From the IMG/VR virus record IMGVR_UViG_3300045988_027757: DNA of 13,031 nucleotides; one strand, written 5' to 3'. This document shows positions 1 to 13,031 of the stretch, one piece after another. How positions within the stretch are numbered: the stretch's first letter is position 1; each line of letters starts with the position of its first letter. The stretch comes from a virus. The notes under the pieces were generated by a model. That model did not search any database and had not been told where the DNA came from. It was given only the letters and a program-made list of their open reading frames with translations. The position numbers and the translations under genes were made by a program.

Positions 1-99
1 GTCATTGCTAACATACCTATAAGAAAAATCCCTCCCTCTGCACTCGGTAGGGTAGGGGAGTACAGCAATTTTTACAATGTAAATAGCAACATATACAAT
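1..99. repeat. Left inverted terminal repeat (99 bp)
   Basis: Bases 1-99 (gtcattgctaacatacc...aacatatacaat) are the exact reverse complement of 12933-13031. Identity stops at base 100. Read directly from the sequence. Confidence 0.95.
71..99 (+). promoter_or_regulatory. ITR-embedded promoter-like element, left copy, pointing inward on the + strand
   Basis: TTTACA (71-76), a 17-nt spacer, then TACAAT (94-99). This is the mirror copy of 12933-12961. No plus-strand gene follows it; only the hairpin at 103-124 does. Confidence 0.3.
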
Positions 100-124
100 A
101 AGCAACCCCTCAATAGAGGGGTTG
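95..124 (-). terminator. Hairpin terminator after the tailspike gene (possibly bidirectional)
   Basis: In minus sense: CAACCCCTC-TATT-GAGGGGTTG (9-bp stem, 103-111 pairing with 116-124), followed by CTTATTGTATAT. It lies 6 nt after the TAA stop at 131-133. On the plus strand the same stem is followed by TTGTTGTGGTT. Confidence 0.6.
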
Positions 125-130
125 TTGTGG

Positions 131-2371
131 TTAAATAGCTGTAGTGGAAATTTGCTGAATGTTTGTAGGGGCACCCAGTTTTGAGTACTTTGTAGGGTCA
201 AACCCGTTGATGAATCCAAACGTACAGTTGCCCGCACCAAACTGAACACCTGCTGTGTAGGCGGGCGATATATCCCATCCAGAAAGTCGGGTAATAAAGC
301 ACCACTCCGAACCGACAAATACAGCTGGTGCGTTTTCTCCATGTAGGGTATTGCGCACTACCGTAATATCGTCCACGAGGGTTCCAATGCCGTCTGAGAT
401 TTGAATCGGACGCGATACATCAATAAAAGTACAATGACTGATAGATACTGCCTTACACCCCCCTTCGATGTAAATACCATTCATGGGAGCCGTCGCGAGG
501 AACTGGCATGTATTGATAACAGCAGTTGATTTTACCAGTCGTATGCCGTATGCCGTGGCGTTACTATAGCTGTTTATAATATGTACTGCACCCTGAAGAC
601 AATTTGTTAAGTAAATACCAGTATTCGGGCACTGGTCTGCAATGAAACCATCAATCAGAATGTCCCAAACCGTTGAGGGGGTCGAGGTTGCGTTAATCCA
701 TATGCCATTGGAGTTGCTACATTCACAGTTGCTGATATAAATATCTCGAATGTCGTTAGAAGAATCAGCAAGGAACATCCACCTATCCCCTGTAGCACTG
801 CCGAGGCTGGAAATGCAGTTTTCTGCGCGGAAAGAGGCGTTGCCGGAGATACCAGTTGCACCCGTGGAATTCTCTACTAAATGATAACTTGTAATAGGCT
901 TAGAGGTTTCAAGTGCAATATCATGTATAATATTGCGCACCTGCATATTGACAGTATGCGCACATTCTAACACTTTACGGCAACCGATTATAAACATATC
1001 CTCAATGAAGAATCGCTCAGAATACTCCGAAGTAAAAGCCGCGTCTACCGCATCTGTTGTACCGATAATAACGCCATTGCGAAAAATAGTGCGCTCCACA
1101 TGGGCTGTATTACTGCCGTTAAAAATGAATTTGCTGTTGGCAGTAGTGAGCTTAATAACACACCCCTGCAAATCGTATGTTGTGTGCGGTTGAAGATAAA
1201 TATTATTACTCACAATGTATGTAGTATCAGTGCCCAGTCCCTCATATGTAGCAGGACGACCAAACTTCACTGTACCCTCATAATCGGAGAGATAATTGCT
1301 GATAGCAGACCCTAAATCACCTTCATAATTAAACCAGTCAACCAGTACAACGCTATCGGTCATCTTGATCGTGCCGTTGTTTGCTTTACGGAAATGACAG
1401 TTAGCACCGGCAATCGGTGCGGTGATGGTTACTGTGCATGTGGTCGCAATCAACATTGCGTTGTACGCAAAATAGGAGCCGGTCAGTGTGACGTCCTGTG
1501 TAATATTGTATGTACCATCCGGGAACAGCAGTGGAAGACCAGATGCCATAGCACGCTTAATTGCCTCCGTATCATCCGCTAAGCCGTTGCCTAATGCACC
1601 GTAGTCCTTAACGTTAGCAAATGCACCAGAGGATTTGTCCTCAATCTGTTTTTGTAATTTCTTATCTGCCTCAATACGGGCCTGTGTCTCATTGCCAATA
1701 GCCGTCTGAAGCTGGGTGTCGGCGTCCTTCCGGGCCTGTGTCTCATTGTCAATATCCGTCTGAAGCTGGGTGTCGGCGTCCTTCCGGGCCTGTGTCTCAT
1801 TGTCAATATCCGTCTGAAGCTGGGTGTCGGCGTCCTCCCGAGCCGCTTTCTCTGCGCTCAAGCCCTCATTAAATGCGGTGATAAGGTAGTTCAGAACTTC
1901 ATTTGTGGAGCTGCTGACGCAGTTGGAGCCGGGCACGTAAGCATCACCGGCGGACATTGTTTTTGTGACACGTACCAGCGCCCCGTTTACCCAGACAAGA
2001 TCGTTGACCGCTCTATCCGCTGTCGCGGTGGGGCTATGCCCCTCATCGTTGGGAGTAATGGCTTTTTTGACATCGGCCCAAAGTTCATCGAAATTGCCAA
2101 TTTTGGTCCAGAACTCGGTACGATCCAGAGACACACCGGACGGCACCGGCTGTACGGAAAGATAGGCGTTGCCGTTGCTGTCCACAACAACGGTGTTTGC
2201 CTCATACTGGCTTGTGATGTCCCACTGAATCGGGTTTGCGTACTTGATCGTGGCCAAACTGACAAAATTTGTCAGTTTGGTATTAAACTCGTTTAGTACC
2301 TCCATAATCCAATCAAGATTGAGATCATGGAAATTGGTGTAGGGCGCTTTGTGAATAGGATCAATATTCAT
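131..2371 (-). CDS. Tailspike / pre-neck-appendage-like receptor-binding protein with a right-handed beta-helix (pectate-lyase-like) domain
   Basis: 746-aa ORF, the last gene of the late block. ATG at 2371 is preceded by AAGGAG. After the N-terminal region comes a triple 18-aa coiled-coil repeat, then the motif AFANVKDYGALGNGLADDTEAIKRAM. That motif is typical of pectate-lyase-3 / tailspike beta-helix N-caps. It is followed by a long repetitive N/G/S/T/I-rich region consistent with beta-helix rungs. Confidence 0.85.
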   Translation of the reverse strand: MNIDPIHKAPYTNFHDLNLDWIMEVLNEFNTKLTNFVSLATIKYANPIQWDITSQYEANTVVVDSNGNAYLSVQPVPSGVSLDRTEFWTKIGNFDELWADVKKAITPNDEGHSPTATADRAVNDLVWVNGALVRVTKTMSAGDAYVPGSNCVSSSTNEVLNYLITAFNEGLSAEKAAREDADTQLQTDIDNETQARKDADTQLQTDIDNETQARKDADTQLQTAIGNETQARIEADKKLQKQIEDKSSGAFANVKDYGALGNGLADDTEAIKRAMASGLPLLFPDGTYNITQDVTLTGSYFAYNAMLIATTCTVTITAPIAGANCHFRKANNGTIKMTDSVVLVDWFNYEGDLGSAISNYLSDYEGTVKFGRPATYEGLGTDTTYIVSNNIYLQPHTTYDLQGCVIKLTTANSKFIFNGSNTAHVERTIFRNGVIIGTTDAVDAAFTSEYSERFFIEDMFIIGCRKVLECAHTVNMQVRNIIHDIALETSKPITSYHLVENSTGATGISGNASFRAENCISSLGSATGDRWMFLADSSNDIRDIYISNCECSNSNGIWINATSTPSTVWDILIDGFIADQCPNTGIYLTNCLQGAVHIINSYSNATAYGIRLVKSTAVINTCQFLATAPMNGIYIEGGCKAVSISHCTFIDVSRPIQISDGIGTLVDDITVVRNTLHGENAPAVFVGSEWCFITRLSGWDISPAYTAGVQFGAGNCTFGFINGFDPTKYSKLGAPTNIQQISTTAI
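1678..1839. repeat. Tandem direct repeat, 3 x 54 nt, inside the tailspike gene
   Basis: Units begin at 1678, 1732 and 1786 (gggcctgtgtctcattg[c/t]caata[g/t]ccgtctgaagctgggtgtcggcgtcct[t/c]cc). They encode DADTQLQT(D/A)I(D/G)NETQAR(K/I) three times. Confidence 0.95.
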
Positions 2372-2384
2372 AAATCACATCTCC

Positions 2385-3074
2385 TTAATATACCAGCAAA
2401 CAAAAGTTTGCCCGGATGTCCGTAACGATTTTATGAACGGCGTTCTCCATTGCAAGGGTCAACTCTTTGGCAATAAGGTCTTGCGGGTCCCGTCCTGCCC
2501 GGCCCTTCTCGGTCACGGTGTCATTGTAGCCGTCGTGTAACTCCGAGACATTGTCATCGGTTGTTGTCTGATCGGTGGTGGTCGTGTCCGTGCCGCTGCT
2601 GGTAATAGTGTTCCCAGTACCGAGGGCCGTTGTGCTCCTCTCCGCAGTTTGTAATGCCCCACTGTCGAACCCCGTGACGTCCCGGGTTGTGATGTCACTG
2701 CCGTTATTATGGCCGGTGGTAGTCAGGTTAGGCGCTCTTGTGGTAGTTCCCTTCACGCCGTTAGTGCGGTTAATTGTGCCGCCGCTGGTTCCTGCATGGT
2801 CGGTGGTTCTGGTTCGGTCATCGGACGCCAAAGCGTCGTATTTAAGGCCCAGGGCCTCAGCGTACCGGGTCCAGCTCGGGAGCATGGTTTCAGAATAGAC
2901 GCCCAGTGCCCTGCGCATCGTGGGGCCGTCCGCATACAATACCTCTAATTCCAGCGTATCAAACAGTAATTGATTGCAGACATTATCTTTAGATACACTG
3001 TCGGGAACTTTCAAGTCATCGAACAGCTCCGGGTATCCCGACAGCAACCCGTTAAAGCTCAACGTTGCGTGCAT
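2385..3074 (-). CDS. Lower collar / tail tube protein (phi29 gp11 position)
   Basis: 229-aa ORF. ATG at 3074 is preceded by AGGAGGTGA. It lies directly between the connector and tailspike genes, as gp11 does in phi29. It has a long T/G/S/D-rich central segment. The call rests mainly on synteny. Confidence 0.55.
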   Translation of the reverse strand: MHATLSFNGLLSGYPELFDDLKVPDSVSKDNVCNQLLFDTLELEVLYADGPTMRRALGVYSETMLPSWTRYAEALGLKYDALASDDRTRTTDHAGTSGGTINRTNGVKGTTTRAPNLTTTGHNNGSDITTRDVTGFDSGALQTAERSTTALGTGNTITSSGTDTTTTDQTTTDDNVSELHDGYNDTVTEKGRAGRDPQDLIAKELTLAMENAVHKIVTDIRANFCLLVY

Positions 3075-3993
3075 CGTTGTTCACCTCCTGCGCCCCAGTA
3101 TCGGGCGGAAAACGCCAATCGACCCATAAAGTAGATTTGTCAATTCCAAAGAGCTTGTGTACTCGCTCACACCCATGCTGCAAGCTGTCCAACCATAGCG
3201 ACGCTTTGGCGGCTGTCTCCACGTTGTTCGAATTGACTTCGTCGGTCAGCATCCGCTCTTTCTTGCTGGTGTTTGTGTTTGGGATGCCTACTTCTGTGTC
3301 AAACAACGCTTTAATGGTTTTAAGGGCTGTTAGCAGTTCGTTGGTGATGAAGTTTCCTTTGAGGTCGGTTGCAAAGTACATCCATGGTGCTTGACCAGAT
3401 GCCCCATTTTTAGGCGCTTTGAGCAAAGAGGCATCAACAAAAACTGCGGGGTCACCCTGCATAATCGCGTCAAACATCTTTTTGAAAGATTCCGCACCCG
3501 CTTTGTCGCCTGCCGCGAACACGTAGGCAAGGCGGCTATTGATTAAATTGCTCTGGATGGTCTGGGCGGTAAGGGCCATCATGTCCCCGTAATATGCCAC
3601 AATATCCACCATACCGCGGTAATCGGGCTGCAAATTGATGATCTCGCACTGCTTCCCGATTTGCAAATAGGGGGACCCTTTGATAAAAGGGTTTGCAATG
3701 ATGGAGTGTGTGGGATTATAGAAAATGTTGATGCCGGTCAATCCCATTCGGTCATATACGAGGCCGTAGCGGTCAGTATTGAACACCGTAACACCGCCGG
3801 ACCCGAAAACAAGATATTGCAAGCGGTTACTGGGCCATGTGTCGGGGAGCGTCCAGCGGACCATAGATACCGCTTCGAGAAAGAGGTACTTGCGGAAATA
3901 GTAGGATAAGCTGTTACCCTTGGTGTTCATCACGGAGGGAGTCACCGGCGACACATGAGCGTTAATCTGCTCATAGCTGTAGGGTGCACTCAT
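3052..3993 (-). CDS. Head-tail connector (portal, upper collar), phi29 gp10-like
   Basis: 313 aa (phi29 gp10 is about 309 aa). The segment GIPNTNTSKKERMLTDEVNSNNVE matches my recollection of gp10 [24 protein letters not shown]. The AAAGGAGG RBS and an ATGA overlap with the upstream gene support the start. Confidence 0.88.
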   Translation of the reverse strand: MSAPYSYEQINAHVSPVTPSVMNTKGNSLSYYFRKYLFLEAVSMVRWTLPDTWPSNRLQYLVFGSGGVTVFNTDRYGLVYDRMGLTGINIFYNPTHSIIANPFIKGSPYLQIGKQCEIINLQPDYRGMVDIVAYYGDMMALTAQTIQSNLINSRLAYVFAAGDKAGAESFKKMFDAIMQGDPAVFVDASLLKAPKNGASGQAPWMYFATDLKGNFITNELLTALKTIKALFDTEVGIPNTNTSKKERMLTDEVNSNNVETAAKASLWLDSLQHGCERVHKLFGIDKSTLWVDWRFPPDTGAQEVNNDARNVEL

Positions 3994-4526
3994 AACAGAC
4001 GGCCTCCTTTCGCCATTTTAAACAGTAACCACACCGGCAATTTACCAGTAGGCCACGGACCCGGCCCGGGGCCAGGTCCTCCGCCGGAATCCCATTCGAC
4101 GTCCCATGTGCCGACCTGATTTGGGATTCTGATAATGCCGGACGGGTCCCTCAAGTTTCCGGCGGCGTCGGCGTACTCCCAGTGCGTGTGAATGCCCGTT
4201 GCGTTGCCGGTTTTGCCCTGCGTGCCGATAAACTGACCCTTGGAAATGGTGTCACCAACGTTCCAAATCTGCGAGGCAAAGTGAGCGGCTCGCCAGGTGG
4301 TGCCGTCGGCCATCCGTACTTTAATCATGTTTCCCCACGACTGATCACCCGAGGTACTGCCATTCCAGTGCTGCGCCACGACCACAACGCCCGCTTCTGG
4401 CGCGTATGATTTATGGTTGCCGTGTACCGTATCAATGCCCCGATGGGGACTGCCATCCGAGTACGCGGGGTAGCCTGCGGTTACCCGGATGGGGGAAACA
4501 TCCGTAATGCACTGTTTATATGTCAA
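3990..4526 (-). CDS. M23 (LytM-type) zinc metallopeptidase; tail-associated peptidoglycan hydrolase and/or lysin
   Basis: 178 aa with the M23 signatures HRGID (HxxxD) and HTHWE (HxH). It has a TTG start at 4526, 8 nt after AGGAGG. The C-terminus carries a GGGPGPGPGP linker followed by a hydrophobic/basic tail. Confidence 0.85.
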   Translation of the reverse strand: MTYKQCITDVSPIRVTAGYPAYSDGSPHRGIDTVHGNHKSYAPEAGVVVVAQHWNGSTSGDQSWGNMIKVRMADGTTWRAAHFASQIWNVGDTISKGQFIGTQGKTGNATGIHTHWEYADAAGNLRDPSGIIRIPNQVGTWDVEWDSGGGPGPGPGPWPTGKLPVWLLFKMAKGGRLL

Positions 4527-4538
4527 GATTAACGCCTC

Positions 4539-5939
4539 CTACTCATAGAAAAAACCGTTTTTGAGATAGCTTTTAACACTGTCGATCTCTGCCGCTGTGG
4601 CATTGAGCGCGATGTCTGGATCATCTACCATAATGAACCCCGGAATTGTGGACAACTGTACCCGCTTGCACAAGGGCCGTCCGTGGTCCTCATTGTTGTC
4701 GTCCACAAGAATTTTAAAGCGAGCGACCATATACGGTACCGAATCAAAAGCTATTGTAGAACCAGTGGCACCCTTACTTGCAACATCAGCATTGGTTGCT
4801 TGTGCAGCATTTAGAATACCGTTTCCAACGTCTGAGAAAGATCCCCCGGTTAATGCTGCTTGGAGACCTCCGAACGCAGCAGCAATACCCGTTTGCAGCA
4901 GTCCTCCGCCCGATGGTACATCAAATGTAATATTTGAAAGTTGAATAGGTACCCCGAGTTTAGCGGTTGTCTCGTGTACTAGCTGATTTGTATCAGTAAA
5001 CACTCGCAAGATACTGTCGCCGGTGAAAAGATCCACCTTATACTGTATAGATAATGTTGCAGCGCCCCACAATTTAGAGGCACCAAGGGGAATTACTCCA
5101 AATGGCTGCAAGAAGATAGTGTAGTCCGTGTAGGGGGAGGCATTGCAATACCCTCCACGACTTGCCGCTTGTGGGTGCTTCGGAATAGCCACACTTACAG
5201 ATTGTGTTAAATTATTATTATCTTCTCCCAAAATCCAGCACGGAATGTCTACCGACCACCACCCAACATCTACACTAGAAACAAGCGGTAAATGTGCGGT
5301 GATTTTGGCAATACTGAATGGAAAGTAGTTACAACTTACGATATACTGATAGGGATTAAAAAGTATTTTTGTTAAACTGTCACTAATCTCCGCATTGTCT
5401 ATACTAAGGTACGACACATCGGTTAGTAATTTGGCGGAGAGTTTTTTAGCGTTTCCAGACGTCATTACTACATACGTCACCGCTCCAACCGAGTTCGCGT
5501 TTTTAGCTATGAAGCCGATAACAAAGAAGCCCCCGCTGATTGTTTCAGCGAACCCCCCTTGAAAAGCGGTTGTCACACTCTGCACTTTAGCCGTCGCCGG
5601 ATAAAGACCATCTGAAATTGTACCATCAAACCGAGCCGACGACCTCGCCACATACTCTGTAGAGTTTCCAATTTGTTCTCGATAACTCGCCAGCGTGTCA
5701 ACAGTCAGCGATGCAGTCCATAGGCCTTCAGAATACGTCCAGTTCTTAACCCAGTAGTAGCGGCTAAATGTAGGCAGATAGCAATAGTTATATCCCGTCG
5801 GGTCACTCTGTGAGGCAATCTTGATTTCGGGGTTGATAATGTTGCAGGGGGCTTTAAGGTCAATTCCAAACTCATGACCGCCGCTGGGCCGTTTTGTGCT
5901 GTTTGTGCGCTTTGCGAATTGATAAAATGTTGCTTGCAT
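4539..5939 (-). CDS. Tail knob protein, phi29 gp9-like
   Basis: 466 aa, immediately after the capsid gene as in phi29. It has a Gly/Ala-rich hydrophobic segment (GGGLLQTGIAAAFGGLQAALTGG...). The C-terminal part (GFIMVDDPDIALNATAAEIDSVKSYLKNGFF) parallels my recollection of the gp9 pore-forming loop and C-terminus ([27 protein letters not shown]). RBS is AGGAGG. Confidence 0.75.
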   Translation of the reverse strand: MQATFYQFAKRTNSTKRPSGGHEFGIDLKAPCNIINPEIKIASQSDPTGYNYCYLPTFSRYYWVKNWTYSEGLWTASLTVDTLASYREQIGNSTEYVARSSARFDGTISDGLYPATAKVQSVTTAFQGGFAETISGGFFVIGFIAKNANSVGAVTYVVMTSGNAKKLSAKLLTDVSYLSIDNAEISDSLTKILFNPYQYIVSCNYFPFSIAKITAHLPLVSSVDVGWWSVDIPCWILGEDNNNLTQSVSVAIPKHPQAASRGGYCNASPYTDYTIFLQPFGVIPLGASKLWGAATLSIQYKVDLFTGDSILRVFTDTNQLVHETTAKLGVPIQLSNITFDVPSGGGLLQTGIAAAFGGLQAALTGGSFSDVGNGILNAAQATNADVASKGATGSTIAFDSVPYMVARFKILVDDNNEDHGRPLCKRVQLSTIPGFIMVDDPDIALNATAAEIDSVKSYLKNGFFYE

Positions 5940-5950
5940 AAACGCCTCCT

Positions 5951-5984
5951 AAAAAAATAACCGGCGAGCGTACTGCCCGCCGGT
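5951..5984 (-). terminator. Rho-independent terminator after the major capsid gene
   Basis: In minus sense: ACCGGCGGGC-AGTAC-GCTCGCCGGT (10-bp stem including one G-U pair), followed by TATTTTTTT. It begins 5 nt after the TGA at 5990-5992. The RBS of the next gene follows immediately. Confidence 0.8.
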
Positions 5985-5989
5985 GCCGG

Positions 5990-7264: not shown

Positions 7265-7265
7265 A

Positions 7266-7625
7266 TCACTTCACTTCCTTTCCGTAGGTGGGGTCGATGA
7301 TTCGGGCTGTCACAGTAGCGGCATCTGCCGCCGGCTGCTGCTGGATACCAAGGCCCAGCGCGTTTGCCTGCAACGTCTGGGTCATAGTCTGCATTGCCTG
7401 GGCGTTGGTCTGCTGGCCCTGCAAAATCTCCCGCAACAGGGTTTCGAGGCCGTCATACTGCGGCGCGGGCTGCGGCGCGGGCTGCGGCACGGGCTGTAGC
7501 GCGGGCTGCGGCACGGGCTGCGGCACGGGCTGCGGCACGGGCTGCGGCACGGGCTTCTCCATAGCTTCGATCTCTGCTTTGGTGTATCCGGCCATTGCGA
7601 GGGCCGCTTTTTCACTGATTTTCAA
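7266..7625 (-). CDS. Scaffolding protein candidate with a (P-x-P-Q) repeat linker
   Basis: 119 aa, directly upstream of the capsid gene (the phi29 gp7 position). TTG start at 7625 lies 7 nt after GGAGGCG. A helical, Q/A/L-rich C-terminal half follows PVPQPVPQPVPQPVPQPALQPVPQPAPQPAPQ. Confidence 0.6.
   Translation of the reverse strand: MKISEKAALAMAGYTKAEIEAMEKPVPQPVPQPVPQPVPQPALQPVPQPAPQPAPQYDGLETLLREILQGQQTNAQAMQTMTQTLQANALGLGIQQQPAADAATVTARIIDPTYGKEVK
7458..7553. repeat. Tandem direct repeat, 8 x 12 nt, inside the scaffold gene
   Basis: ctgcggc[g/a]cggg occurs eight times with one variant unit (ctgtagcgcggg). It encodes the Pro-Gln repeat. Confidence 0.95.
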
Positions 7626-7845
7626 CTTTTGTCGCCTCCATTACAACGTATGTGTCATGTGCCAGGCATCTAACGACCTGGTCTTTGTCTCCTTTGGACA
7701 GAGGGCCCACCGCGCAATACTGCCGCGTGTGAGCGACGTCTGCCCAGTCGCTATAGTAGCCGATTTTCAAACGAGTGCACAGGTCAGCCAGCAGAAACGC
7801 ACGCTCGTTTGTGATCGACTGGGCGAAAATGATATAACAACCCAT
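7612..7845 (-). CDS. Hypothetical protein (77 aa), second gene of the late block
   Basis: ATG at 7845 is preceded by AAGGAAAG. It is tightly packed between the holin candidate (2-nt gap) and the scaffold gene (14-nt overlap). No motif recognised. Confidence 0.55.
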   Translation of the reverse strand: MGCYIIFAQSITNERAFLLADLCTRLKIGYYSDWADVAHTRQYCAVGPLSKGDKDQVVRCLAHDTYVVMEATKVENQ

Positions 7846-7847
7846 AG

Positions 7848-8006
7848 TTAGCTTTCCTTCTTGATGTCGTCCAGGGCGAGCCGCATCTCGGTAATAGCCG
7901 CAGTGTTCTCCTTGACAACGGTATTACACTGATACCACATTAGCAAAAAAGCGGCGATAGGAAACCCAACGTTAGAAATAGCCTGAATCACAGTATTAGC
8001 ATCCAT
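7848..8006 (-). CDS. Small membrane protein, BhlA/UviB-like holin candidate (52 aa, not in the ORF track)
   Basis: Hand translation gives MDANTVIQAISNVGFPIAAFLLMWYQCNTVVKENTAAITEMRLALDDIKKES. ATG at 8006 lies 5 nt after GGAGGTG, and the stop is TAA at 7848. It has one N-terminal hydrophobic helix followed by a charged helical tail. The pattern resembles BhlA-family holins (GPFAVLFCWLLFYVMKTSKERESKL, from memory). Confidence 0.5.
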   Translation of the reverse strand: MDANTVIQAISNVGFPIAAFLLMWYQCNTVVKENTAAITEMRLALDDIKKES

Positions 8007-8037
8007 TTGAGCACCTCCATATTAAATATAAATACAA

Positions 8038-8109
8038 TAATCCCAGGTTCTTGCGCTGGCTGACGCTTGCCCGCCCCTTCTGGGGGCTGCCTGTGGGCGC
8101 CTGGGATTA
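8038..8109 (-). ncRNA. GC-rich structured RNA element (candidate pRNA-like RNA or late-operon leader)
   Basis: A 10-bp helix, TAATCCCAGG (8100-8109) pairing with CCTGGGATTA (8038-8047), encloses 52 GC-rich nt. Inside is a GCCCC-CAGAA-GGGGC hairpin, plus possible CGC/GCG and GGC/GCC helices. It starts at the predicted transcription start of the promoter at 8115-8143. It is followed by AUUAUUGUAUUUAUAUUU. Confidence 0.35.
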
Positions 8110-8114
8110 ACTTT

Positions 8115-8143
8115 AATATATATCACCCGTATAAAAAAGTCAA
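8115..8143 (-). promoter_or_regulatory. Sigma-A/sigma-70-type promoter for the late (lysis and structural) block
   Basis: In minus sense: TTGACT (8138-8143), a 17-nt spacer, then TATATT (8115-8120). The -35 box overlaps the ATPase stop codon. This is the only near-consensus promoter I found inside the genome. Confidence 0.6.
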
Positions 8144-9201
8144 GTACCGCAATACTCGCGAAAGAAAATTTCATCCGAGTATCGCTCAAACTCAATTTGC
8201 CTCTGCAAATACGCGGGCCAGATATACCCATACGCGGCCCTGAATCGTTTACGCTCATAATCGCCGGTGCCGTATGTGGGCATCTCGCCGGACCGATGCC
8301 GGCACACATAGTAGAGGGGTTTACTCTTATGCTCATAGATGCAGCACCGCCCAATTTGAACAAGGGGGTAGTATTCCCGGAGGGGCCGAGATACAACAAG
8401 ACTTTTCTCCTCGGCACTGTACTGGTTTTCAATAGCGGACCTATAAAAGTCCGTTCCGGTCATGGACCTATAGAGGGCCGTATTGGCTTTCTCTTTGGCA
8501 ATAGGGCTGTCCACAAGATCAATCAAAAGAATCCCTTTATCGGCCAACAGCTTTACGCGCTCTTTCTTGCCGATCATCTTTTCGACTGTATCGGTGATTT
8601 CCCACTGCATATAATAGGGGTTTGCCATCCCTACCGCATTTGACATACAGAGAAGCGTCAAAGGCTTCTGGCCCTTAAGTTCGCGGTTACGGTTGACTGT
8701 CTCATAAATGTTGGCAAGGCCCACCCCCTCCCCCCGCCGGTAATAGTCGGACTCTTCTTTCTGGTATTCGTCCAAGATAATTATATTGGTATGGGGGCTT
8801 GAAAAACCACGGGTGCGAGCAAGAGTCACCACACTACCCACTAAGCCCGACATCTTGGCCGGTTTTATGGGAGCCCCTGTATCCGTGTAGGCTCCCGCGT
8901 TGCCCACTTCATACAGTCCCGTTATTTTGGGCAATTTGAACGGGGCGTAATGTGTTTGCAAATCATCGTTCAACGGAGACCACGGCCACATACTGGGTGA
9001 CGCGCAAATGAGTTCCGCTTGCTGCGGAGTCCTACGCAAATACAGAAATTCGTCGCCGGTCTGGTGAACGTGCTTTAGCGCCCCGTAGGTCTTGCCGGTA
9101 CCACGCCCGCCCCAGATGAAAATAATGGGGGCTCCTGTGGACAAAATGCCATCCTTTTCAGAAAAATTCGGCCAACCTTCATCGGTGTACAGTTTAATCA
9201 T
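8140..9201 (-). CDS. DNA packaging (encapsidation) ATPase, phi29 gp16-like
   Basis: 353 aa with Walker A GGRGTGKTY and Walker B IIILDE. DEFLYLRR and CMSNAVGMANPYY match my recollection of gp16 EQFIYVRR and CLSNAVSVVNPYF. The start overlaps the polymerase stop (TGATG) and follows GGAGG. Confidence 0.92.
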   Translation of the reverse strand: MIKLYTDEGWPNFSEKDGILSTGAPIIFIWGGRGTGKTYGALKHVHQTGDEFLYLRRTPQQAELICASPSMWPWSPLNDDLQTHYAPFKLPKITGLYEVGNAGAYTDTGAPIKPAKMSGLVGSVVTLARTRGFSSPHTNIIILDEYQKEESDYYRRGEGVGLANIYETVNRNRELKGQKPLTLLCMSNAVGMANPYYMQWEITDTVEKMIGKKERVKLLADKGILLIDLVDSPIAKEKANTALYRSMTGTDFYRSAIENQYSAEEKSLVVSRPLREYYPLVQIGRCCIYEHKSKPLYYVCRHRSGEMPTYGTGDYERKRFRAAYGYIWPAYLQRQIEFERYSDEIFFREYCGT

Positions 9202-11291
9202 CAGACAACCTCCATAATCTTATACCCAAGTATCTTTGCGTATTCGTCAGTGATACCCAACGTGTAGGTATTATCACAAATACACAGGTTTCTTGTTATA
9301 TGTACCGTATGACCGTCAACCACAAAATCGGGCACATTGGGCCGGTCATTATAAATAACCTGATTTCCGGCGGCAAGACAGAACGTAAAGCCGGGCTTGA
9401 ATACCTCAAAACCACCCCATAGGGCCAGCTCCAAACCGCCTTTCCGCTTGCTAACTCCTGCTATGGTAGTAGTAATCGGCCCGCCTTTTTTATAGGTAGT
9501 AGCGTATTTCTTAGCGCCCCACGTCATAAACTCCGCGTAGCTGCGCTCTTGCTCATAAACGCCCATGTAATGAGTATTGCCTTTGGGGTCTGTAGCGCAA
9601 GCACCGTTGTCTTTTGCAAGCTGTTTCACAGATTTGTTAAACTCCGCTAAATCAATATTACCCATGTATTTGACGCTGTCCGTGTCGCAGTACACGCCAT
9701 TTTTGCCCGCGGCCCATTGCGCTATTTTTAGGCGCTTGCGGGTGTGAGCGGTTGTCCATACGCCCCATTGATACGGTAGGAACAAATGGGGGCGGTGGTC
9801 GTTATAACTGCCCTCCGGGTCGTCGGTGCATTCGCTCCACAGATCGTCGGGGTCGTCCTCGTCAAAAAGTGTGTCCAGCTGCAAGGGGTCCTGTGCTGTC
9901 ATGCCGTAGTAGCTATTGAGATCGCCCTTGGCTTTGACATAATACAAATCTTGACCGGCTACACCTTTAAGAGATGTTTTGCCGGTGTAACTCTCTTTTA
10001 CACAATCCGTCAAGGGCTTTGGCAGTTTGTCATAATCGGACGTCCAGAGGTCCAGAACGTTAAGGGCGTCCCAATCATATTCTTTGGCAATGATTCTAAA
10101 ATCTATATCTGTTATGGTGATCTCGAAATGTTCAGCAGACAGCAAACGACCATTGTCGTTAATGTATCCTTCACAGTGCCGGACTTTCGCAAGCGGGATA
10201 TAGGGAAACCCCCACCACTTAAACCGCTGGCGCAAACCTTTTACTTGCAAGCGCATCAAGCACGCCTTGCCGTGCCTCATACATTGCATCAGCCGCACGA
10301 CGGTGGCCGGTTCCTGCTTAAATGGAGTCATAGGAAAATAACATTCACATTGTACGGCGGGGTACGCACTCGACATATCCACGGAACCGACGTTTTCTAG
10401 GTGCAAACCCACATAATAGCGGTTGGCGTGAGTGTCACCACCTCGGAAAGCCTCCCGCAGCATCTGGTAAAGGTCCCATGACGGAAGCAACCTCTTGACC
10501 CGTTTAATGCCCCATTCGTACATGGCCGAGCGTGCCATTCGTCTGACGTAACCAGTGCGCGTCAGTGGCAATGAATACAGGTCGTCGCCGTCTCGCTTCA
10601 TCTCAATTAACAAGCACTCCACAATACAGCGAACATCGTTGATACAATACGCTAATTCTGTAGACGTTAAGGGAGTCCATGGATAACGAACCTTTGAATA
10701 ATCAAGTGCCCCGGTCAATTTGGCATGAGGGGCACCCAACTGTTTGCCCCATGCGTCAAGGGACAAATTGCTATGGCGCATACTGCATCGATATTCAATA
10801 GCGCGGTTGTCGCATTTTAAGACCCTTCGGGGCTTGCTGGCGAATACGTCGCCGGGGCCAAAATCCAGAACCCCCGACAGATATTGGAATTCGTGAGCGA
10901 GATTATGGACGTACATACACAGAAACCAGTCACCCTGCGGGCCGCTGTTTGCTTGCAAATAGTCGCTGATTGCTCCCGTAAAGTTCAGCCACTCGTCCCA
11001 CGTCCTACCAATAATGGTAATATCCAGACCAAGTTGACACTGCCAAATATACATTATGGTGTGTGGATTGTCGTCCGCATCTACACATACTCGGCTAGTC
11101 TCGATATCAAACGCACATGGGGCATTAACGTACAAGCGTTTCTTATTTGTTTTGCGTTTTTTGCCTTTGGTGTGCTTTCTGTCCAAATGCTCCATGAGCC
11201 ACGGGACAGGGTTATAATTACAAGCCTCCGCCAAAACCTCCGCGCAGGTCGGCGGAACTGCTGCCGTCACTGTAGTCCCATTCTTTGCCAT
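9201..11291 (-). CDS. Family-B DNA polymerase, protein-primed type (phi29 gp2-like)
   Basis: Motifs present: ExoI AFDIETS, ExoII YVHNLAHEF, ExoIII YCINDVRCIVE, motif A VDMSSAYP, motif B KGDLNSYYG, motif C YCDTDS (9675-9692) and KxY GAKKYA. Long insertions lie between motifs A/B and B/C, where the TPR1 and TPR2 insertions sit in phi29. The track ORF starts at GTG 11303. I prefer ATG 11291 because AAGGTGAGG lies 6 nt upstream of it. Confidence 0.95.
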   Translation of the reverse strand: MAKNGTTVTAAVPPTCAEVLAEACNYNPVPWLMEHLDRKHTKGKKRKTNKKRLYVNAPCAFDIETSRVCVDADDNPHTIMYIWQCQLGLDITIIGRTWDEWLNFTGAISDYLQANSGPQGDWFLCMYVHNLAHEFQYLSGVLDFGPGDVFASKPRRVLKCDNRAIEYRCSMRHSNLSLDAWGKQLGAPHAKLTGALDYSKVRYPWTPLTSTELAYCINDVRCIVECLLIEMKRDGDDLYSLPLTRTGYVRRMARSAMYEWGIKRVKRLLPSWDLYQMLREAFRGGDTHANRYYVGLHLENVGSVDMSSAYPAVQCECYFPMTPFKQEPATVVRLMQCMRHGKACLMRLQVKGLRQRFKWWGFPYIPLAKVRHCEGYINDNGRLLSAEHFEITITDIDFRIIAKEYDWDALNVLDLWTSDYDKLPKPLTDCVKESYTGKTSLKGVAGQDLYYVKAKGDLNSYYGMTAQDPLQLDTLFDEDDPDDLWSECTDDPEGSYNDHRPHLFLPYQWGVWTTAHTRKRLKIAQWAAGKNGVYCDTDSVKYMGNIDLAEFNKSVKQLAKDNGACATDPKGNTHYMGVYEQERSYAEFMTWGAKKYATTYKKGGPITTTIAGVSKRKGGLELALWGGFEVFKPGFTFCLAAGNQVIYNDRPNVPDFVVDGHTVHITRNLCICDNTYTLGITDEYAKILGYKIMEVV

Positions 11292-11817
11292 AGTTGACCT
11301 CACCTTGCTGCCACTTTACAAAATCGTCAATACTGACATTGTAGCCGCCTTTCTCGCGCCAGTACATAACCGGCTGGTCGGACGGATAATAGTACACTCC
11401 CGTTGCCTTTACGATCTCCCACCACTCAGACAGGGCCGTGTATTGATCTTCCGGCACATCGGCAATGTCAATACCACCAACTTTCATTTTTTGCTCAAAT
11501 TTTGCCCGCGCACCGCCAACAGTGGAGCCTTTGGAGCGCACAAAACGCGCTACATCCGCAAGGGCCTGTTCCAATGCTTTGCGGTCTCCCCGCATTGCTT
11601 TCAGGGTAGGGAAACCTCCGGCAAATTCTTTATAAACATCGCTGGTGCCGCTGATGGGGTCTTTTGATAATCGCTTGATACGTTTCTGCGCAATGTCACG
11701 TAGTCGGGTGTACTCTTTACGCATCTGCTTATCGGGCCAAGACTCCAAGGCGTAGGGGGTGTACAGCTCGGAGCTGTATTTTAGGGTTGCACTTGCTTTA
11801 GCTGCGCCTGCTGCCAT
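11218..11817 (-). CDS. Terminal protein candidate (primer for DNA replication)
   Basis: 199 aa, immediately upstream of and overlapping the polymerase gene, which is the phi29 gene 3 / gene 2 arrangement. KEYTRLRDIAQKRIKRL resembles my recollection of the phi29 TP N-terminus AEYARLVKNTKAKIARTKKKY. The Ser/Tyr-rich C-terminus (WDYSDGSSSADL) could hold the priming residue. Confidence 0.6.
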   Translation of the reverse strand: MAAGAAKASATLKYSSELYTPYALESWPDKQMRKEYTRLRDIAQKRIKRLSKDPISGTSDVYKEFAGGFPTLKAMRGDRKALEQALADVARFVRSKGSTVGGARAKFEQKMKVGGIDIADVPEDQYTALSEWWEIVKATGVYYYPSDQPVMYWREKGGYNVSIDDFVKWQQGEVNYGKEWDYSDGSSSADLRGGFGGGL

Positions 11818-12028
11818 GCTTCTCCCGCTCCTTTCTATTCATAATCATATAATACCAGTTGAGGGGGTCTGCTTCAATTCCTAGGCCGTTGAAAATGATT
11901 TTGGCCCATTCAGAGCGGAAAAACTTTACATCATTTGTTGTGACTCCACTATATACAATGGCCGTTGCGAGGTAGATCAAATAATCGTCGCAGTTAAGCA
12001 AGGATACTCTGTTATCTTTACTTTTCAT
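11798..12028 (-). CDS. Hypothetical early protein (76 aa) with a basic C-terminus
   Basis: ATG at 12028 lies 4 nt after TAGGAGG. It overlaps the TP gene start by 20 nt. No motif recognised. Confidence 0.6.
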   Translation of the reverse strand: MKSKDNRVSLLNCDDYLIYLATAIVYSGVTTNDVKFFRSEWAKIIFNGLGIEADPLNWYYMIMNRKEREKHGSRRS

Positions 12029-12040
12029 GGGGCCTCCTAT

Positions 12041-12068
12041 AATAAATAAGGGCGGCCATAGGCCGCCC
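12041..12068 (-). terminator. Rho-independent terminator inside the early operon
   Basis: In minus sense: GGGCGGCC-TAT-GGCCGCCC (8-bp all-GC stem, 12050-12068), followed by TTATTTATTAT. It lies 5 nt after the TAA at 12074-12076. Confidence 0.7.
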
Positions 12069-12073
12069 GCCGG

Positions 12074-12373: not shown

Positions 12374-12405
12374 GGTATTGATTCCTTTCTGCCCTGTCTC
12401 ATCAG

Positions 12406-12443
12406 TACCGGACGGGCTACCCGGTAGACGGCCCGTAGGCCGT
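12406..12443 (-). other. Two adjacent GC-rich hairpins in the 76-nt gap between early genes
   Basis: First hairpin: taccgg (12406-12411) pairs with ccggta (12421-12426) around a 9-nt loop. Second hairpin: acggcc (12428-12433) pairs with ggccgt (12438-12443) around a 4-nt loop. An alternative ACGGGC/GCCCGT pairing bridges the two. No U-tract follows. Confidence 0.4.
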
Positions 12444-12449
12444 TTCGAC

Positions 12450-12716
12450 TCATTTCTTGTCGTATAAAGAGTACATGGCCCTGACACCATCTCGGACGTG
12501 ATCCGCGCCCTGATACATGAGATCGGCTGACAAGCACGTCCCTTTGAAGCCCTTAAGCGTCTCAACCTGCTCATCGCAATGCTTGAGTGCTTGCCGATAA
12601 CCGGCCAACCACGCACGATCAGTTGCGGCCCAAATGGATTCTTTAGGGTCCTCATACTCACAGCACGTCAGCGACCCGTCGGGGTGTATCTCAATGATGA
12701 ATTTACGCATTTCCAT
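12450..12716 (-). CDS. Hypothetical early protein (88 aa, four Cys)
   Basis: ATG at 12716 lies 7 nt after AGGAGAG. The start is embedded in the last codons of the upstream 58-aa gene. No motif recognised. Confidence 0.65.
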   Translation of the reverse strand: MEMRKFIIEIHPDGSLTCCEYEDPKESIWAATDRAWLAGYRQALKHCDEQVETLKGFKGTCLSADLMYQGADHVRDGVRAMYSLYDKK

Positions 12717-12879
12717 TTGTGGACTCTCCTATCTGTAAAAAACTCAAAGTCTTTGAAAGACTGACAAGCATCTTGATGCTGTCGATAATATCGTTCTCTG
12801 TCAGTTCTAGGATATTCTCACCATCAAGAGTAATATTATCATCGGTTAAATCGATAGTAATCGTGATTTCTTTTTTCAT
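12703..12879 (-). CDS. First early gene: small, strongly acidic protein (58 aa, not in the ORF track)
   Basis: Hand translation gives MKKEITITIDLTDDNITLDGENILELTENDIIDSIKMLVSLSKTLSFLQIGESTNGNA. ATG at 12879 is preceded by AAAGGGGGTG. It has 11 Asp/Glu against 4 Lys. Its 14-nt overlap with the next gene start suggests translational coupling. Confidence 0.6.
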   Translation of the reverse strand: MKKEITITIDLTDDNITLDGENILELTENDIIDSIKMLVSLSKTLSFLQIGESTNGNA

Positions 12880-12915
12880 TGGAGCACCCCCTTTCTTGTT
12901 TCTTTAATTGTCTAT

Positions 12916-12924
12916 ATTATACCA
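12916..12924 (-). promoter_or_regulatory. Extended -10 promoter element just inside the right ITR
   Basis: In minus sense: TGgTATAAT (TATAAT = 12916-12921). It lies about 37 nt upstream of the first early start codon. The -35 region is weak. Confidence 0.4.
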
Positions 12925-12932
12925 TACACTAA

Positions 12933-12961
12933 ATTGTATATGTTGCTATTTACATTGTAAA
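12933..12961 (-). promoter_or_regulatory. ITR-embedded promoter-like element, right copy, pointing at the early genes
   Basis: In minus sense: TTTACA, a 17-nt spacer, then TACAAT ending exactly at the inner ITR boundary. It is in tandem with the extended -10 element 8 nt further downstream. Confidence 0.45.
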
Positions 12962-13031
12962 AATTGCTGTACTCCCCTACCCTACCGAGTGCAGAGGGAG
13001 GGATTTTTCTTATAGGTATGTTAGCAATGAC
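12933..13031. repeat. Right inverted terminal repeat (99 bp)
   Basis: Exact reverse complement of bases 1-99. Confidence 0.95.

What the first reader, a model, noticed from the sequence alone, without database searches (positions are those of the whole stretch)
1..13031. The window is a complete, unusually small linear phage genome with 99-bp ITRs and a protein-primed replication module
The two ends of the window are perfect inverted copies of each other over 99 bp. Between them lies a full set of phi29-type genes: terminal protein candidate, DNA polymerase B with all exonuclease and polymerase motifs, gp16-like ATPase, scaffold, gp8-like capsid, gp9-like knob, gp10-like connector, lower collar and appendage.

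At 13.0 kb it is well below phi29 (about 19.3 kb) and near the lower size limit known for tailed phages. The protein matches I can recognise are short motif islands, not long identity. This suggests a distant, possibly unclassified lineage.

Sample 60-nt stretches counted by hand range from about 30% to 62% G+C. Together with the strong Shine-Dalgarno sites, this suggests a mid-GC Bacillota-type host (inference).
Basis: partly seen in the sequence, partly recalled or inferred. Interest (0 to 1): 0.8.

Follow-up and report, generated by a model that had tools for sequence, protein, structure and literature searches.

The report
Near-complete small phi29-like gut phage
The window is an almost complete genome of a very common but uncultured human-gut relative of phage phi29; its "99-bp terminal repeat" is an assembler-limited slice of a repeat of about 189 bp, so this is an ordinary member of a known group, not a new kind of virus.

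Summary
The 99-bp perfect inverted repeat at the ends is real, and so is the phi29-type gene set. That set comprises a protein-primed family-B polymerase, gp16-like ATPase, phi29-type capsid protein, gp9-like knob, gp10-like connector, gp11-like lower collar, appendage, M23 peptidase and holin.

The window is not complete. An ENA assembly of the same strain is 100% identical over all 13,031 bp, runs 28 bp further at each end, and has an ITR of exactly 127 bp, which is its k-mer size. Relatives extend about 90 bp beyond the window to a shared terminus, 5'-GGGACACG, and sequencing adapters are fused near it. The true ITR is therefore about 189 bp and the genome about 13.2 kb.

The lineage is not obscure. 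At least 184 IMG/VR contigs encode a polymerase 95% or more identical, and the polymerase's 90%-identity cluster has 6,656 members. GenBank holds an unclassified relative from human faeces. Cultured phages of 10.4-12.3 kb share the gene layout. The terminal-protein assignment rests on position and on homology to the Astrithr counterpart, not on similarity to phi29 gp3. The host is unresolved.

Two extras turned up: a canonical type II hammerhead ribozyme between early genes, and an unannotated 75-nt covarying RNA element next to the ATPase gene.

The parts
1..99 (.). Left inverted terminal repeat; only the inner 99 bp of a repeat of about 189 bp
   Evidence: 100% complementary to 12933-13031. 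Identical to positions 91-189 of the 189-bp ITR of L006. The same strain assembled at k=127 gives a 127-bp ITR.
12933..13031 (.). Right inverted terminal repeat (inner part), on the promoter-proximal end
   Evidence: The right end of MT836263.1 matches it from ITR position 47 inward.
12933..12961 (-). Sigma-70-like promoter TTTACA-N17-TACAAT inside the ITR, reading into the genes. Its mirror copy lies at 71-99(+).
   Evidence: 10 of 12 consensus matches. Consensus match only; function is inferred.
12916..12924 (-). Extended -10 element TGGTATAAT just inside the right ITR
   Evidence: Read from the sequence. Conserved in MT836263.1. Function is inferred.
12703..12879 (-). Early ORF, 58 aa, unknown function
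   Evidence: ORF with a Shine-Dalgarno motif. No family hit.
12450..12716 (-). Early ORF, 88 aa, unknown function
   Evidence: ORF with AGGAG upstream. No significant family hit.
12388..12450 (-). Type II hammerhead ribozyme. Predicted cleavage is after C12427 (GUC|U).
   Evidence: Rfam RF02276: 44.3 bits against a gathering score of 37, E = 1.8e-06. The core CUGAUGA/GAAA/GUC is present. All 19 pairs are kept in 9 distinct copies, with one compensatory pair. The loop I-tail pseudoknot GCCC/GGGC matches the published description (PMC3088659).
12074..12373 (-). Early ORF, 99 aa, unknown function
   Evidence: ATG preceded by AAAGGA. Called as a 99-aa gene in L304. No family hit.
12050..12068 (-). 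Intrinsic-terminator-like hairpin GGGCGGCC-TAT-GGCCGCCC followed by a T-rich tail
   Evidence: 8 G-C pairs. Function is inferred.
11798..12028 (-). ORF, 76 aa, unknown function
   Evidence: AGGAGG Shine-Dalgarno motif. No family hit.
11218..11817 (-). Terminal-protein candidate, 199 aa
   Evidence: Lies immediately upstream of the polymerase gene. BLASTP to Astrithr gp02 at 5.8e-06 and hhalign 92.9%, E = 3.8e-07. All-helical AlphaFold model, pLDDT 74.9. Invariant Ser, Thr and Tyr residues, including the S98-T99-V-G-G motif. No similarity to phi29 gp3 by sequence or fold.
9201..11291 (-). Protein-primed family-B DNA polymerase. The start is ambiguous: 11291, or 11195 for a 664-aa product.
   Evidence: PF03175 and phrog_1907. 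25% identical to phi29 gp2 at 3e-12. Motifs aligned. Start options examined.
8140..9201 (-). gp16-like DNA-packaging ATPase, 353 aa
   Evidence: PF05894 at 6.6e-15; phrog_2150 at 4.1e-24; BLASTP to phi29 gp16 at 1.4e-15.
8115..8143 (-). Sigma-70-like promoter TTGACT-N17-TATATT; candidate late promoter
   Evidence: 10 of 12 consensus matches. Function is inferred.
8036..8110 (-). Conserved 75-nt multi-branched RNA element of unknown function
   Evidence: 23 base pairs, 5 of them with compensatory changes; 0 of 500 shuffles reach the observed covariation. Present in all 81 close relatives and in at least 119 IMG/VR contigs. No Rfam family matches.
7848..8006 (-). Holin, 52 aa
   Evidence: phrog_4898 (holin) at 1.8e-06. 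Hydrophobic core visible in the sequence.
7612..7845 (-). ORF, 77 aa, unknown function
   Evidence: Called as a gene in L304. No family hit.
7266..7625 (-). Scaffolding-protein candidate, 119 aa, with (PQPV)n repeats
   Evidence: Lies directly upstream of the capsid gene, as phi29 gp7 does. The 12-nt tandem repeat spans 7446-7577. No homology evidence; assigned by position only.
5990..7264 (-). Major capsid protein, phi29 type, 424 aa
   Evidence: PF25622 Phi29_MCP at 1.9e-17. BLASTP to the AD70P2 capsid protein at 5e-48.
5960..5984 (-). Strong intrinsic-terminator-like hairpin followed by TATTTTTTTA, after the capsid gene
   Evidence: 10 pairs, 8 of them G-C. Function is inferred.
4539..5939 (-). 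Tail knob, gp9-like, 466 aa, with a disordered Gly/Ala/Leu-rich loop at residues 340-383
   Evidence: AlphaFold pLDDT 87.5. Foldseek top hit is phi29 gp9 5FB5_A: E = 1.4e-11, probability 1.00, TM 0.55. Homologous to AD70P2 gp05 and to the two halves of the split knob in Astrithr.
3990..4526 (-). M23 metallopeptidase, 178 aa; cell-wall hydrolase
   Evidence: PF01551 at 1.1e-13. BLASTP to the M23 domain of phi29 gp13 at 6.6e-07.
3052..3993 (-). Connector (upper collar), gp10-like, 313 aa
   Evidence: PF05352 at 3.8e-16; phrog_2038 at 6.1e-27; BLASTP to phi29 gp10 at 6e-15.
2385..3074 (-). Lower collar, gp11-like, 229 aa
   Evidence: hhalign of the window-family profile against a gp11-family profile: 94.2%, E = 1.2e-07, window residues 29-91 against gp11 48-110. 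Reciprocal HMM hits as well. BLASTP to AD70P2 gp03 at 1e-07.
131..2371 (-). Appendage or tailspike, 746 aa, with a pectate-lyase-like domain and three 18-aa repeats
   Evidence: PF12708 at 4.2e-07; tailspike and pre-neck-appendage PHROGs; BLASTP to phi29 gp12 at 1e-07. The C-terminal part is replaced in MT836263.1.
103..124 (-). Terminator-like hairpin after the last gene, just inside the left ITR
   Evidence: 9 pairs followed by CTTATTGTAT. Function is inferred.

Best explanation
The window is the nearly full genome of an uncultured human-gut podophage of the phi29-like, protein-primed group. It lacks at least 28 bp, and most likely about 90 bp, at each end. The assembler collapsed the two copies of a terminal inverted repeat of about 189 bp and kept only k = 99 bases of it.

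Inferred life cycle, following phi29:
- Replication. A terminal protein, probably the 199-aa product encoded just upstream of the polymerase gene, primes DNA synthesis by the family-B polymerase at both ends. The terminal 5'-GGG reiteration allows sliding-back. Replication proceeds by strand displacement.
- Transcription. All genes are read in one direction from promoters at the right ITR. Terminator-like hairpins divide the genes into units. A type II hammerhead cuts the early transcript between the second and third ORFs. A second promoter, followed by a conserved structured leader, heads the holin-scaffold-capsid block.
- Assembly and entry. Unit-length DNA is packaged by a gp16-like ATPase through a gp10-like connector into a phi29-type capsid. 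The tail consists of a lower collar, a gp9-like knob with a membrane-active loop, an M23 peptidase and a depolymerase-like appendage.

What is shown: the sequence features, the homologies, the truncation of the ends, and the conservation across relatives. What is inferred: covalent attachment of the terminal protein, the timing of transcription, ribozyme activity, and the host.
For: ITR and truncation:
- The 99-bp ITR is perfect.
- It equals positions 91-189 of the 189-bp ITR of L006.
- About 12 contigs share the terminus 5'-GGGACACGTAATAGC.
- TruSeq and Nextera adapters are fused a few bases in from that end in L073, L080 and L084.
- L304, the same strain with 0 mismatches, has 28 extra bp per end and an ITR of 127 bp, its k-mer size.
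- Sibling contigs carry ITRs of exactly 55 and 77 bp, which are SPAdes k values.

Genes:
- Pfam and PHROG hits.
- BLASTP to phi29 gp2, gp10, gp12, gp13 and gp16.
- Polymerase motifs aligned to phi29.
- Knob fold matches gp9 at E = 1.4e-11.
- Lower collar: hhalign 94.2%.
- Terminal-protein family matches Astrithr gp02 at 92.9%.
- Gene order is collinear with the cultured Amedibacillus phage AD70P2.

Prevalence and source.

Regulatory elements.
Against: - No tool result shows a protein on the DNA ends.
- The terminal-protein candidate has no detectable sequence or fold similarity to phi29 gp3 and none to the AD70P2 positional counterpart.
- The outer 62 bp of the ITR are inferred from relatives that are 88-92% identical, not observed for this strain.
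- No phi29-type pRNA was found, so packaging may differ from phi29.
- Promoters and terminators are consensus matches only. The scan found 22 promoter-like sites against 15 expected by chance.
Confidence: 0.9

Rival explanations
1. The window is the complete genome and the terminal repeat is truly 99 bp.
For: The repeat is perfect and starts exactly at both ends of the window.
Against: The same strain assembled elsewhere is identical but 28 bp longer at each end, with a 127-bp ITR equal to its k-mer size. The 99 bp are the inner part of a 189-bp ITR in L006, and about 12 contigs run roughly 84-91 bp further to a shared terminus. 99 is a standard assembler k value (own knowledge).
Confidence: 0.02
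2. The inverted repeat is purely an assembly artefact, such as a fold-back chimera, and the real molecule is circular or terminally redundant.
For: ITR lengths in many contigs equal k-mer sizes (55, 77, 99, 127), which shows that the assembler shapes what is seen.
Against: Independent contigs from different samples carry ITRs of non-k lengths (189, 157, 146, 111, 105 bp) with the same terminal sequence. Adapters are fused near that end. No direct terminal repeat is present. The polymerase is of the protein-primed type. Cultured relatives are linear with ITRs. A graph in which an ITR longer than k is collapsed predicts exactly k-long inverted ends.
Confidence: 0.02
3. It is a helper-dependent satellite-like phage, like Acinetobacter phage Phanie, or a linear plasmid, rather than an autonomous phage.
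For: The genome is small. Astrithr-like relatives of similar size include a helper-dependent phage (PMC11476376).
Against: The window encodes a full virion set, including an unsplit gp9-like knob, an appendage or tailspike, an M23 peptidase and a holin. The split knob and the absence of a fibre that typify the Phanie group are not seen here (PMC11476376).
Confidence: 0.04

Closest known systems
Uncultured gut phage contigs of the same genus-level cluster: ENA ERZ915387 k127_63188 (L304), IMG/VR UViG_3300045988_029210 (L006), GenBank MT836263.1
   Same: L304 is 100% identical over the whole window. L006 is 92.3% identical over 98.5% of the window. MT836263.1 is 86.6% identical over 72%. All share the gene order, the ITR sequence and the RNA element.
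   Different: The ends are longer in L304 and L006. The early region is mosaic: the hammerhead occurs in 12 of 80 relatives. The receptor-binding part of the appendage is swapped in some relatives.
Amedibacillus phages AD70P2 and AD70P3 (listed by NCBI under Guelinviridae; 12.2-12.3 kb; cultured)
   Same: Collinear gene order on a single strand, with ITRs. Polymerase 35% identical, capsid protein 29%, connector 33%, ATPase 28%. Knob and lower collar are homologous.
   Different: No nucleotide similarity. GC is 26.7% against 50.1%. AD70P2 has no M23 gene at that position. The terminal-protein candidates are not alignable. The RNA element is absent.
Bacillus phage phi29 (Salasmaviridae, 19.3 kb)
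   Same: Protein-primed polymerase, gp16 ATPase, gp10 connector, gp9 knob fold, gp11 N-terminal domain, gp12-like appendage, and the M23 domain of gp13. The structural genes run in the order 7-8-9-10-11-12.
   Different: phi29 has a 6-bp ITR; this phage has about 189 bp. phi29 has divergent early and late operons; here all genes lie on one strand. The window has no pRNA match, no head fibre, no detectable gp4, gp5 or gp6, and the ATPase gene lies between the polymerase and the late genes.
Astrithrvirus and allies (Salmonella phage astrithr, Pectobacterium DU_PP_III, Acinetobacter Phanie, Vibrio K58 g2; 10.4-11.9 kb)
   Same: Polymerase 32-35% identical and capsid protein about 23% identical. 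The terminal-protein candidate is homologous to gp02, encoded just upstream of the polymerase gene. The ExoII motif carries Glu in both.
   Different: Those phages split the knob into two genes and lack a fibre or spike (PMC11476376). The window has one knob gene and an appendage.
Type II hammerhead ribozymes of bacteria and phages (Rfam RF02276; Perreault et al. 2011)
   Same: Same catalytic core, the same permuted architecture, a 4-bp pseudoknot between loop I and the tail, and an intergenic position in a phage transcript (PMC3088659).
   Different: None found. I saw no report of one in a phi29-like phage in the papers I read, but I did not search for that specifically.

Membership tests
phi29-like protein-primed podophages (broad group: Salasmaviridae, Guelinviridae, Astrithrvirus and allies) | Family-B DNA polymerase of the protein-primed type, with Exo I-III, motifs A/B/C and KxY, and the insertions between A-B and B-C | tested here: met
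   PF03175 at 2.7e-09 and phrog_1907 at 1.3e-39. In the alignment with phi29 gp2 the residues D66/E68, HNLxxE137, Y219..D223, D309xxSxYP, K459xxxNSxYG, Y538CDTDS and K598xY600 line up. Spacing between motifs A and B is 150 aa, against 134 aa in phi29.
phi29-like protein-primed podophages (broad group: Salasmaviridae, Guelinviridae, Astrithrvirus and allies) | Linear genome with inverted terminal repeats | tested here: met
   The ITR is at least 127 bp in this strain and 189 bp in L006.
phi29-like protein-primed podophages (broad group: Salasmaviridae, Guelinviridae, Astrithrvirus and allies) | Terminal-protein gene next to the polymerase gene | tested here: inconclusive
   A 199-aa ORF lies directly upstream and is homologous to Astrithr gp02. 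It has no similarity to phi29 gp3 by sequence, profile or fold. Terminal proteins are known to diverge beyond detection (PMC11476376).
phi29-like protein-primed podophages (broad group: Salasmaviridae, Guelinviridae, Astrithrvirus and allies) | Protein covalently bound to the 5' DNA ends | not testable with these tools
   This needs a proteinase-K dependence test or mass spectrometry.
phi29-like protein-primed podophages (broad group: Salasmaviridae, Guelinviridae, Astrithrvirus and allies) | Virion and packaging core: homologues of p8, p9, p10, p11 and p16 | tested here: met
   p8: PF25622 at 1.9e-17. p10: PF05352 at 3.8e-16. p16: PF05894 at 6.6e-15. p9: Foldseek hit to 5FB5_A at 1.4e-11. p11: hhalign 94.2%.
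Salasmaviridae (phi29 and its Bacillus-phage relatives) | Prohead or packaging RNA (pRNA) | tested here: not met
   Rfam RF00044 was not found in the window or in the full-length relative L006, even with permissive thresholds. A divergent analogue cannot be excluded.
Guelinviridae | Groups with the Clostridium perfringens type phages in capsid, terminase and polymerase trees | not tested
   No phylogeny was run. The only link is through AD70P2, which NCBI files under Guelinviridae but which the review places in a separate capsid-protein cluster (PMC11476376). The window-family lower-collar HMM hits CPS1 at 4e-14 in a 10-sequence set.
Genus-level cluster of about 13-kb gut contigs (L006, L304, MT836263.1 and others) | At least 70% nucleotide similarity over the genome (ICTV genus rule, own knowledge); at least 95% for the same species | tested here: met
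   Coverage times identity is 91% to L006, and 65-89% to about 60 further contigs. L304 is identical. No named species matches.
Type II hammerhead ribozyme (RF02276) | Core CUGANGA, GAAA and an NUH cleavage triplet; stems I and III closed, stem II open; score above the Rfam gathering threshold | tested here: met
   44.3 bits against 37. 19 of 19 pairs are kept in 9 distinct copies. The pseudoknot is as described in PMC3088659.
Type II hammerhead ribozyme (RF02276) | Self-cleavage activity | not testable with these tools
   This needs an in vitro transcription and cleavage assay.

The most novel reading that the evidence does not exclude
The conserved 75-nt multi-branched RNA at 8036-8110(-) lies directly next to the gp16-like ATPase gene and matches no Rfam family. 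It could be a compact packaging-RNA analogue in a phi29-like phage outside the Bacillus-phage group. That would show that RNA-assisted packaging motors are not confined to phi29's closest relatives. More mundane readings are a 5' stabiliser or an antitermination leader of the late transcript.
Probability: 0.1. Interest if true: 0.7.

Novelty: new member of a known kind. Interest (0 to 1): 0.3.

Why it matters
The biology is ordinary: this is one more small phi29-like gut phage.

Two practical points do matter. First, ITR lengths read from short-read contigs can equal the assembler's k-mer size. 'Complete genome' calls based on ITRs, possibly including the 55-bp ITR of the GenBank AD70P2 record, can therefore hide missing origins of replication. 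Second, this lineage is among the most frequently seen gut phages, with thousands of distinct protein variants, yet it has no host, no name and no isolate.

It also carries a self-cleaving ribozyme and an unannotated covarying RNA. Both are small enough to test directly.

Tried and rejected
- Terminal protein against phi29 gp3. I tried phmmer and a profile search against PDB sequences, Foldseek with the AlphaFold model and hhalign. All were negative.
- Terminal protein against AD70P2 gp13. Not significant.
- Knob by sequence against the PDB. Negative. Only the fold search worked.
- Host from genome assemblies. Three hits were binned to Prevotella, Collinsella and Butyricicoccus. Each is a phage-sized contig on its own, so I rejected them as host evidence.
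- pRNA. No Rfam hit in the window, in the 191-nt region alone, or in L006.
- The RNA element in more distant relatives. The covariance model found nothing in L003, AD70P2, Astrithr or phi29. A degenerate-pattern scan found only genomes of the same roughly 13-kb group.
- Single-sequence folding. It gave unremarkable z-scores for both RNA elements (-1.05 and -1.56), so the case for them rests on Rfam scores and covariation.
- tRNAs. None found.
- The weak cow-rumen-3 match at 4123-4267(+). It scores far below the gathering threshold and I treat it as chance.
- Literature search for a name or host for this lineage. Nothing specific was found.

Full report
OBSERVATION

Window positions 1-99 and 12933-13031 are perfectly reverse-complementary. 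The next longest inverted repeat in the window is 23 nt at 74%. Every long ORF is on the minus strand, and about 96% of the window is coding. GC content is 50.1%.

GENE CONTENT

Pfam and PHROGs identify six genes:
- a DNA_pol_B_2 polymerase at 9201-11303 (phrog_1907, 1.3e-39);
- a Podovirus_Gp16 ATPase at 8140-9201;
- a Phi29_MCP capsid protein at 5990-7264;
- a GP10 connector at 3052-3993;
- an M23 peptidase at 3990-4526;
- an appendage or tailspike with a pectate-lyase-like domain at 131-2371.

Direct BLASTP links the window's proteins to phi29 gp2, gp10, gp12, gp13 and gp16. Aligned with phi29 gp2, the polymerase has ExoI, ExoIII, and motifs A, B, C and KxY. In ExoII it carries Glu where phi29 has Asp, a feature shared with the AD70P2 and Astrithr polymerases.

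The 466-aa protein at 4539-5939 had no family or PDB sequence hit. Its family, however, comprises 5,160 clusters at 50% identity. A confident AlphaFold model (pLDDT 87.5) matches the phi29 tail knob gp9 (5FB5_A; E = 1.4e-11, probability 1.00). The only low-confidence segment, residues 340-383, is rich in Gly, Ala and Leu. From my own knowledge, gp9 has a membrane-active loop, and this segment may be its counterpart.

For the 229-aa protein at 2385-3074, I built a small family profile and compared it with a profile of ten annotated lower collars. hhalign gave 94.2% probability and E = 1.2e-07, and the reciprocal HMM searches also hit.

The 52-aa ORF at 7848-8006 is a holin. The scaffold at 7266-7625 is assigned only by its position and its (PQPV)n composition.

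THE TERMINAL-PROTEIN CANDIDATE

The ORF at 11218-11817 lies immediately upstream of the polymerase gene. Its family has invariant basic and Ser/Thr/Tyr positions, and its model is all-helical. It is homologous to Astrithr gp02, the gene just upstream of the polymerase in that phage (5.8e-06; hhalign 92.9%).

It shows no similarity to phi29 gp3 by sequence, profile or fold, and none to the AD70P2 counterpart. A 2024 review reports that HHpred links phi29 TP only to its close relative Nf (PMC11476376). The negative result is therefore expected, but the assignment remains an inference.

THE ENDS

This is the main correction. IMG/VR holds 184 contigs whose polymerase is at least 95% identical to the window's.
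- Among the 80 I fetched, several have inverted ends of exactly 55 or 77 bp, which are SPAdes k values. Others have 89-189 bp.
- The window's 99 bp are identical to positions 91-189 of the 189-bp ITR of L006. About a dozen contigs run roughly 84-91 bp beyond the window's first base.
- Those contigs start at the same sequence, 5'-GGGACACGTAATAGC. The few that go further continue into TruSeq or Nextera adapter sequence fused a few bases in from that end, which marks a physical DNA end.
- An ENA contig from human-gut run ERR589561, named k127_63188, carries the same capsid protein. It has 0 mismatches to the window, 28 extra bp at each end, and an ITR of exactly 127 bp.

The same genome thus yields a 99-bp or a 127-bp 'ITR' depending on k. 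This is what a de Bruijn graph produces when it collapses an inverted repeat longer than k. The window is truncated inside the repeat. The true ITR is at least 127 bp and, by homology, about 189 bp, giving a genome of about 13.2 kb. The terminal GGG fits the sliding-back mode of protein-primed initiation (own knowledge of phi29, Cp-1 and PRD1).

RELATIVES AND NOVELTY

- The nearest GenBank phage record is MT836263.1. It is unverified and unclassified, comes from Mexican faecal samples, and is 86.6% identical over 72% of the window.
- L006 is 92.3% identical over 98.5% of the window. That places it in the same genus but, by the usual thresholds, a different species.
- The polymerase's 90%-identity cluster has 6,656 members and a terminal-protein cluster has 4,426.
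- The cultured Amedibacillus phages AD70P2 and AD70P3 (12.2-12.3 kb) have the same one-strand gene order. Astrithrvirus (about 11.6 kb) and Vibrio phage K58 g2 (10.4 kb) are smaller.
- The review PMC11476376 already describes 11-14 kb phi29-like genomes, many of them from human metagenomes.

The genome is small, but it is neither exceptional nor from an unseen lineage.

HOST

Three genome-collection hits sit in MAGs labelled Prevotella, Collinsella and Butyricicoccus. Each hit is a phage-sized contig on its own, so I discount them as host evidence. Shine-Dalgarno motifs precede 15 of 16 genes. From my own knowledge, this argues against a Bacteroidota host. Cultured relatives infect Bacillota.

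TRANSCRIPTION LAYOUT (INFERRED)

- A TTTACA-N17-TACAAT promoter-like site lies inside the ITR, followed by a TGGTATAAT element just inside it.
- Terminator-like hairpins lie at 12068-12050, 5984-5960 and 124-103.
- A TTGACT-N17-TATATT site lies at 8143-8115, at the end of the ATPase gene.

HAMMERHEAD RIBOZYME

Rfam reports a type II hammerhead at 12388-12450(-), scoring 44.3 bits against a gathering score of 37. It lies between a stop codon and the next Shine-Dalgarno motif. The predicted cleavage is after C12427.

It occurs at the same place in 12 of 80 relatives. All 19 pairs are kept, with one compensatory change, and the 4-bp loop I-tail pseudoknot is invariant. This is the architecture Perreault et al. 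described, and they also noted hammerheads flanking genes in prophages (PMC3088659). More than 120 IMG/VR stretches match a similar pattern. It is a canonical member of a known class. The likely role is processing of the early transcript.

UNEXPLAINED RNA ELEMENT

Between the ATPase gene and the holin gene lies a 133-nt gap. Right after the promoter-like site, at 8036-8110(-), there is a 75-nt multi-branched element.
- Across 26 distinct copies, 99.2% of cells are paired and 5 of 23 pairs show compensatory changes. None of 500 shuffles reaches the observed covariation, and the slid controls collapse.
- It is present in all 81 close relatives and in at least 119 IMG/VR contigs, all from this roughly 13-kb group.
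- No Rfam family matches it, even at E <= 10 on the isolated region.
- My covariance model finds nothing in more distant relatives or in phi29.

It may be a 5' leader that stabilises or regulates the late transcript. Its position beside the packaging ATPase also leaves open a packaging-RNA analogue. I consider that unlikely, at about 0.1.

VERDICT

This is a phi29-like, protein-primed, unclassified phage. It is not complete, its ITR is not 99 bp, it is not near the size limit, and it is not rare. It is a new member of a known kind, of modest interest. The useful cautions concern k-mer-limited ITRs. The two small RNA elements are worth a bench test.

Noticed in passing
window 12388-12450 (-): A type II hammerhead ribozyme above the Rfam gathering score, lying between the stop codon of an 88-aa early ORF and the Shine-Dalgarno motif of the next ORF. 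It is present at the same place in 12 of 80 relatives and has the canonical loop I-tail pseudoknot.
   Followed up: yes
window 8036-8110 (-): A 75-nt multi-branched element with five covarying pairs, lying right after a promoter-like site between the ATPase and holin genes. It is conserved across the whole roughly 13-kb phage group and absent from Rfam. Its function is unknown.
   Followed up: partly
window 7446-7577: A 12-nt tandem repeat of about 8 copies, encoding (PQPV)n in the scaffold candidate. Copy-number variation among relatives was not examined.
   Followed up: no
window 1665-1852: Three 54-nt tandem repeats encoding an 18-aa repeat (DADTQLQTDIDNETQARK) in the stalk of the appendage protein.
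   Followed up: no
window 131-1749 versus L001 (MT836263.1): The C-terminal, probably receptor-binding, part of the appendage gene does not align between close relatives, which suggests module swapping.
   Followed up: no
window 10890-10910 (polymerase residues 133-137): The ExoII motif reads HNLxxE, with Glu where phi29 has Asp. The AD70P2 and Astrithr polymerases share this feature.
   Followed up: partly
L002 (Amedibacillus phage AD70P2, OP172638.1), both ends: This GenBank 'complete genome' has a perfect ITR of exactly 55 bp, a SPAdes k value. Its ends may be k-truncated in the same way as the window's.
   Followed up: no
L073, L080, L084 (IMG/VR) and L206 (GTDB MAG contig), contig ends: Illumina TruSeq or Nextera adapter sequence is left at the ends of public contigs. 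In the IMG/VR contigs it is fused a few bases in from the phage terminus.
   Followed up: partly
L206, L207, L208: Phage-sized contigs, each standing alone, are binned into MAGs labelled Prevotella, Collinsella and Butyricicoccus in a species-representative genome collection. This is probably mis-binning.
   Followed up: no
L006 19-27 and 52-60 (outer ITR, absent from the window): A 9-bp inverted repeat, TTGCACAAA / TTTGTGCAA, lies within the terminal 60 bp and is conserved among relatives. It may be an origin-recognition site.
   Followed up: no
window 11195-11303: The polymerase start is ambiguous. ATG at 11291 has a GAGG motif upstream but overlaps the terminal-protein ORF by 74 nt. ATG at 11195 gives the 664-aa product that gene callers most often report.
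   Followed up: partly
L012 / L214 (IMG/VR UViG_3300045988_033841, 18,010 bp): An 18-kb contig carries two copies of the RNA element in opposite orientation. It is probably a fold-back or chimeric assembly of the same phage.
   Followed up: no
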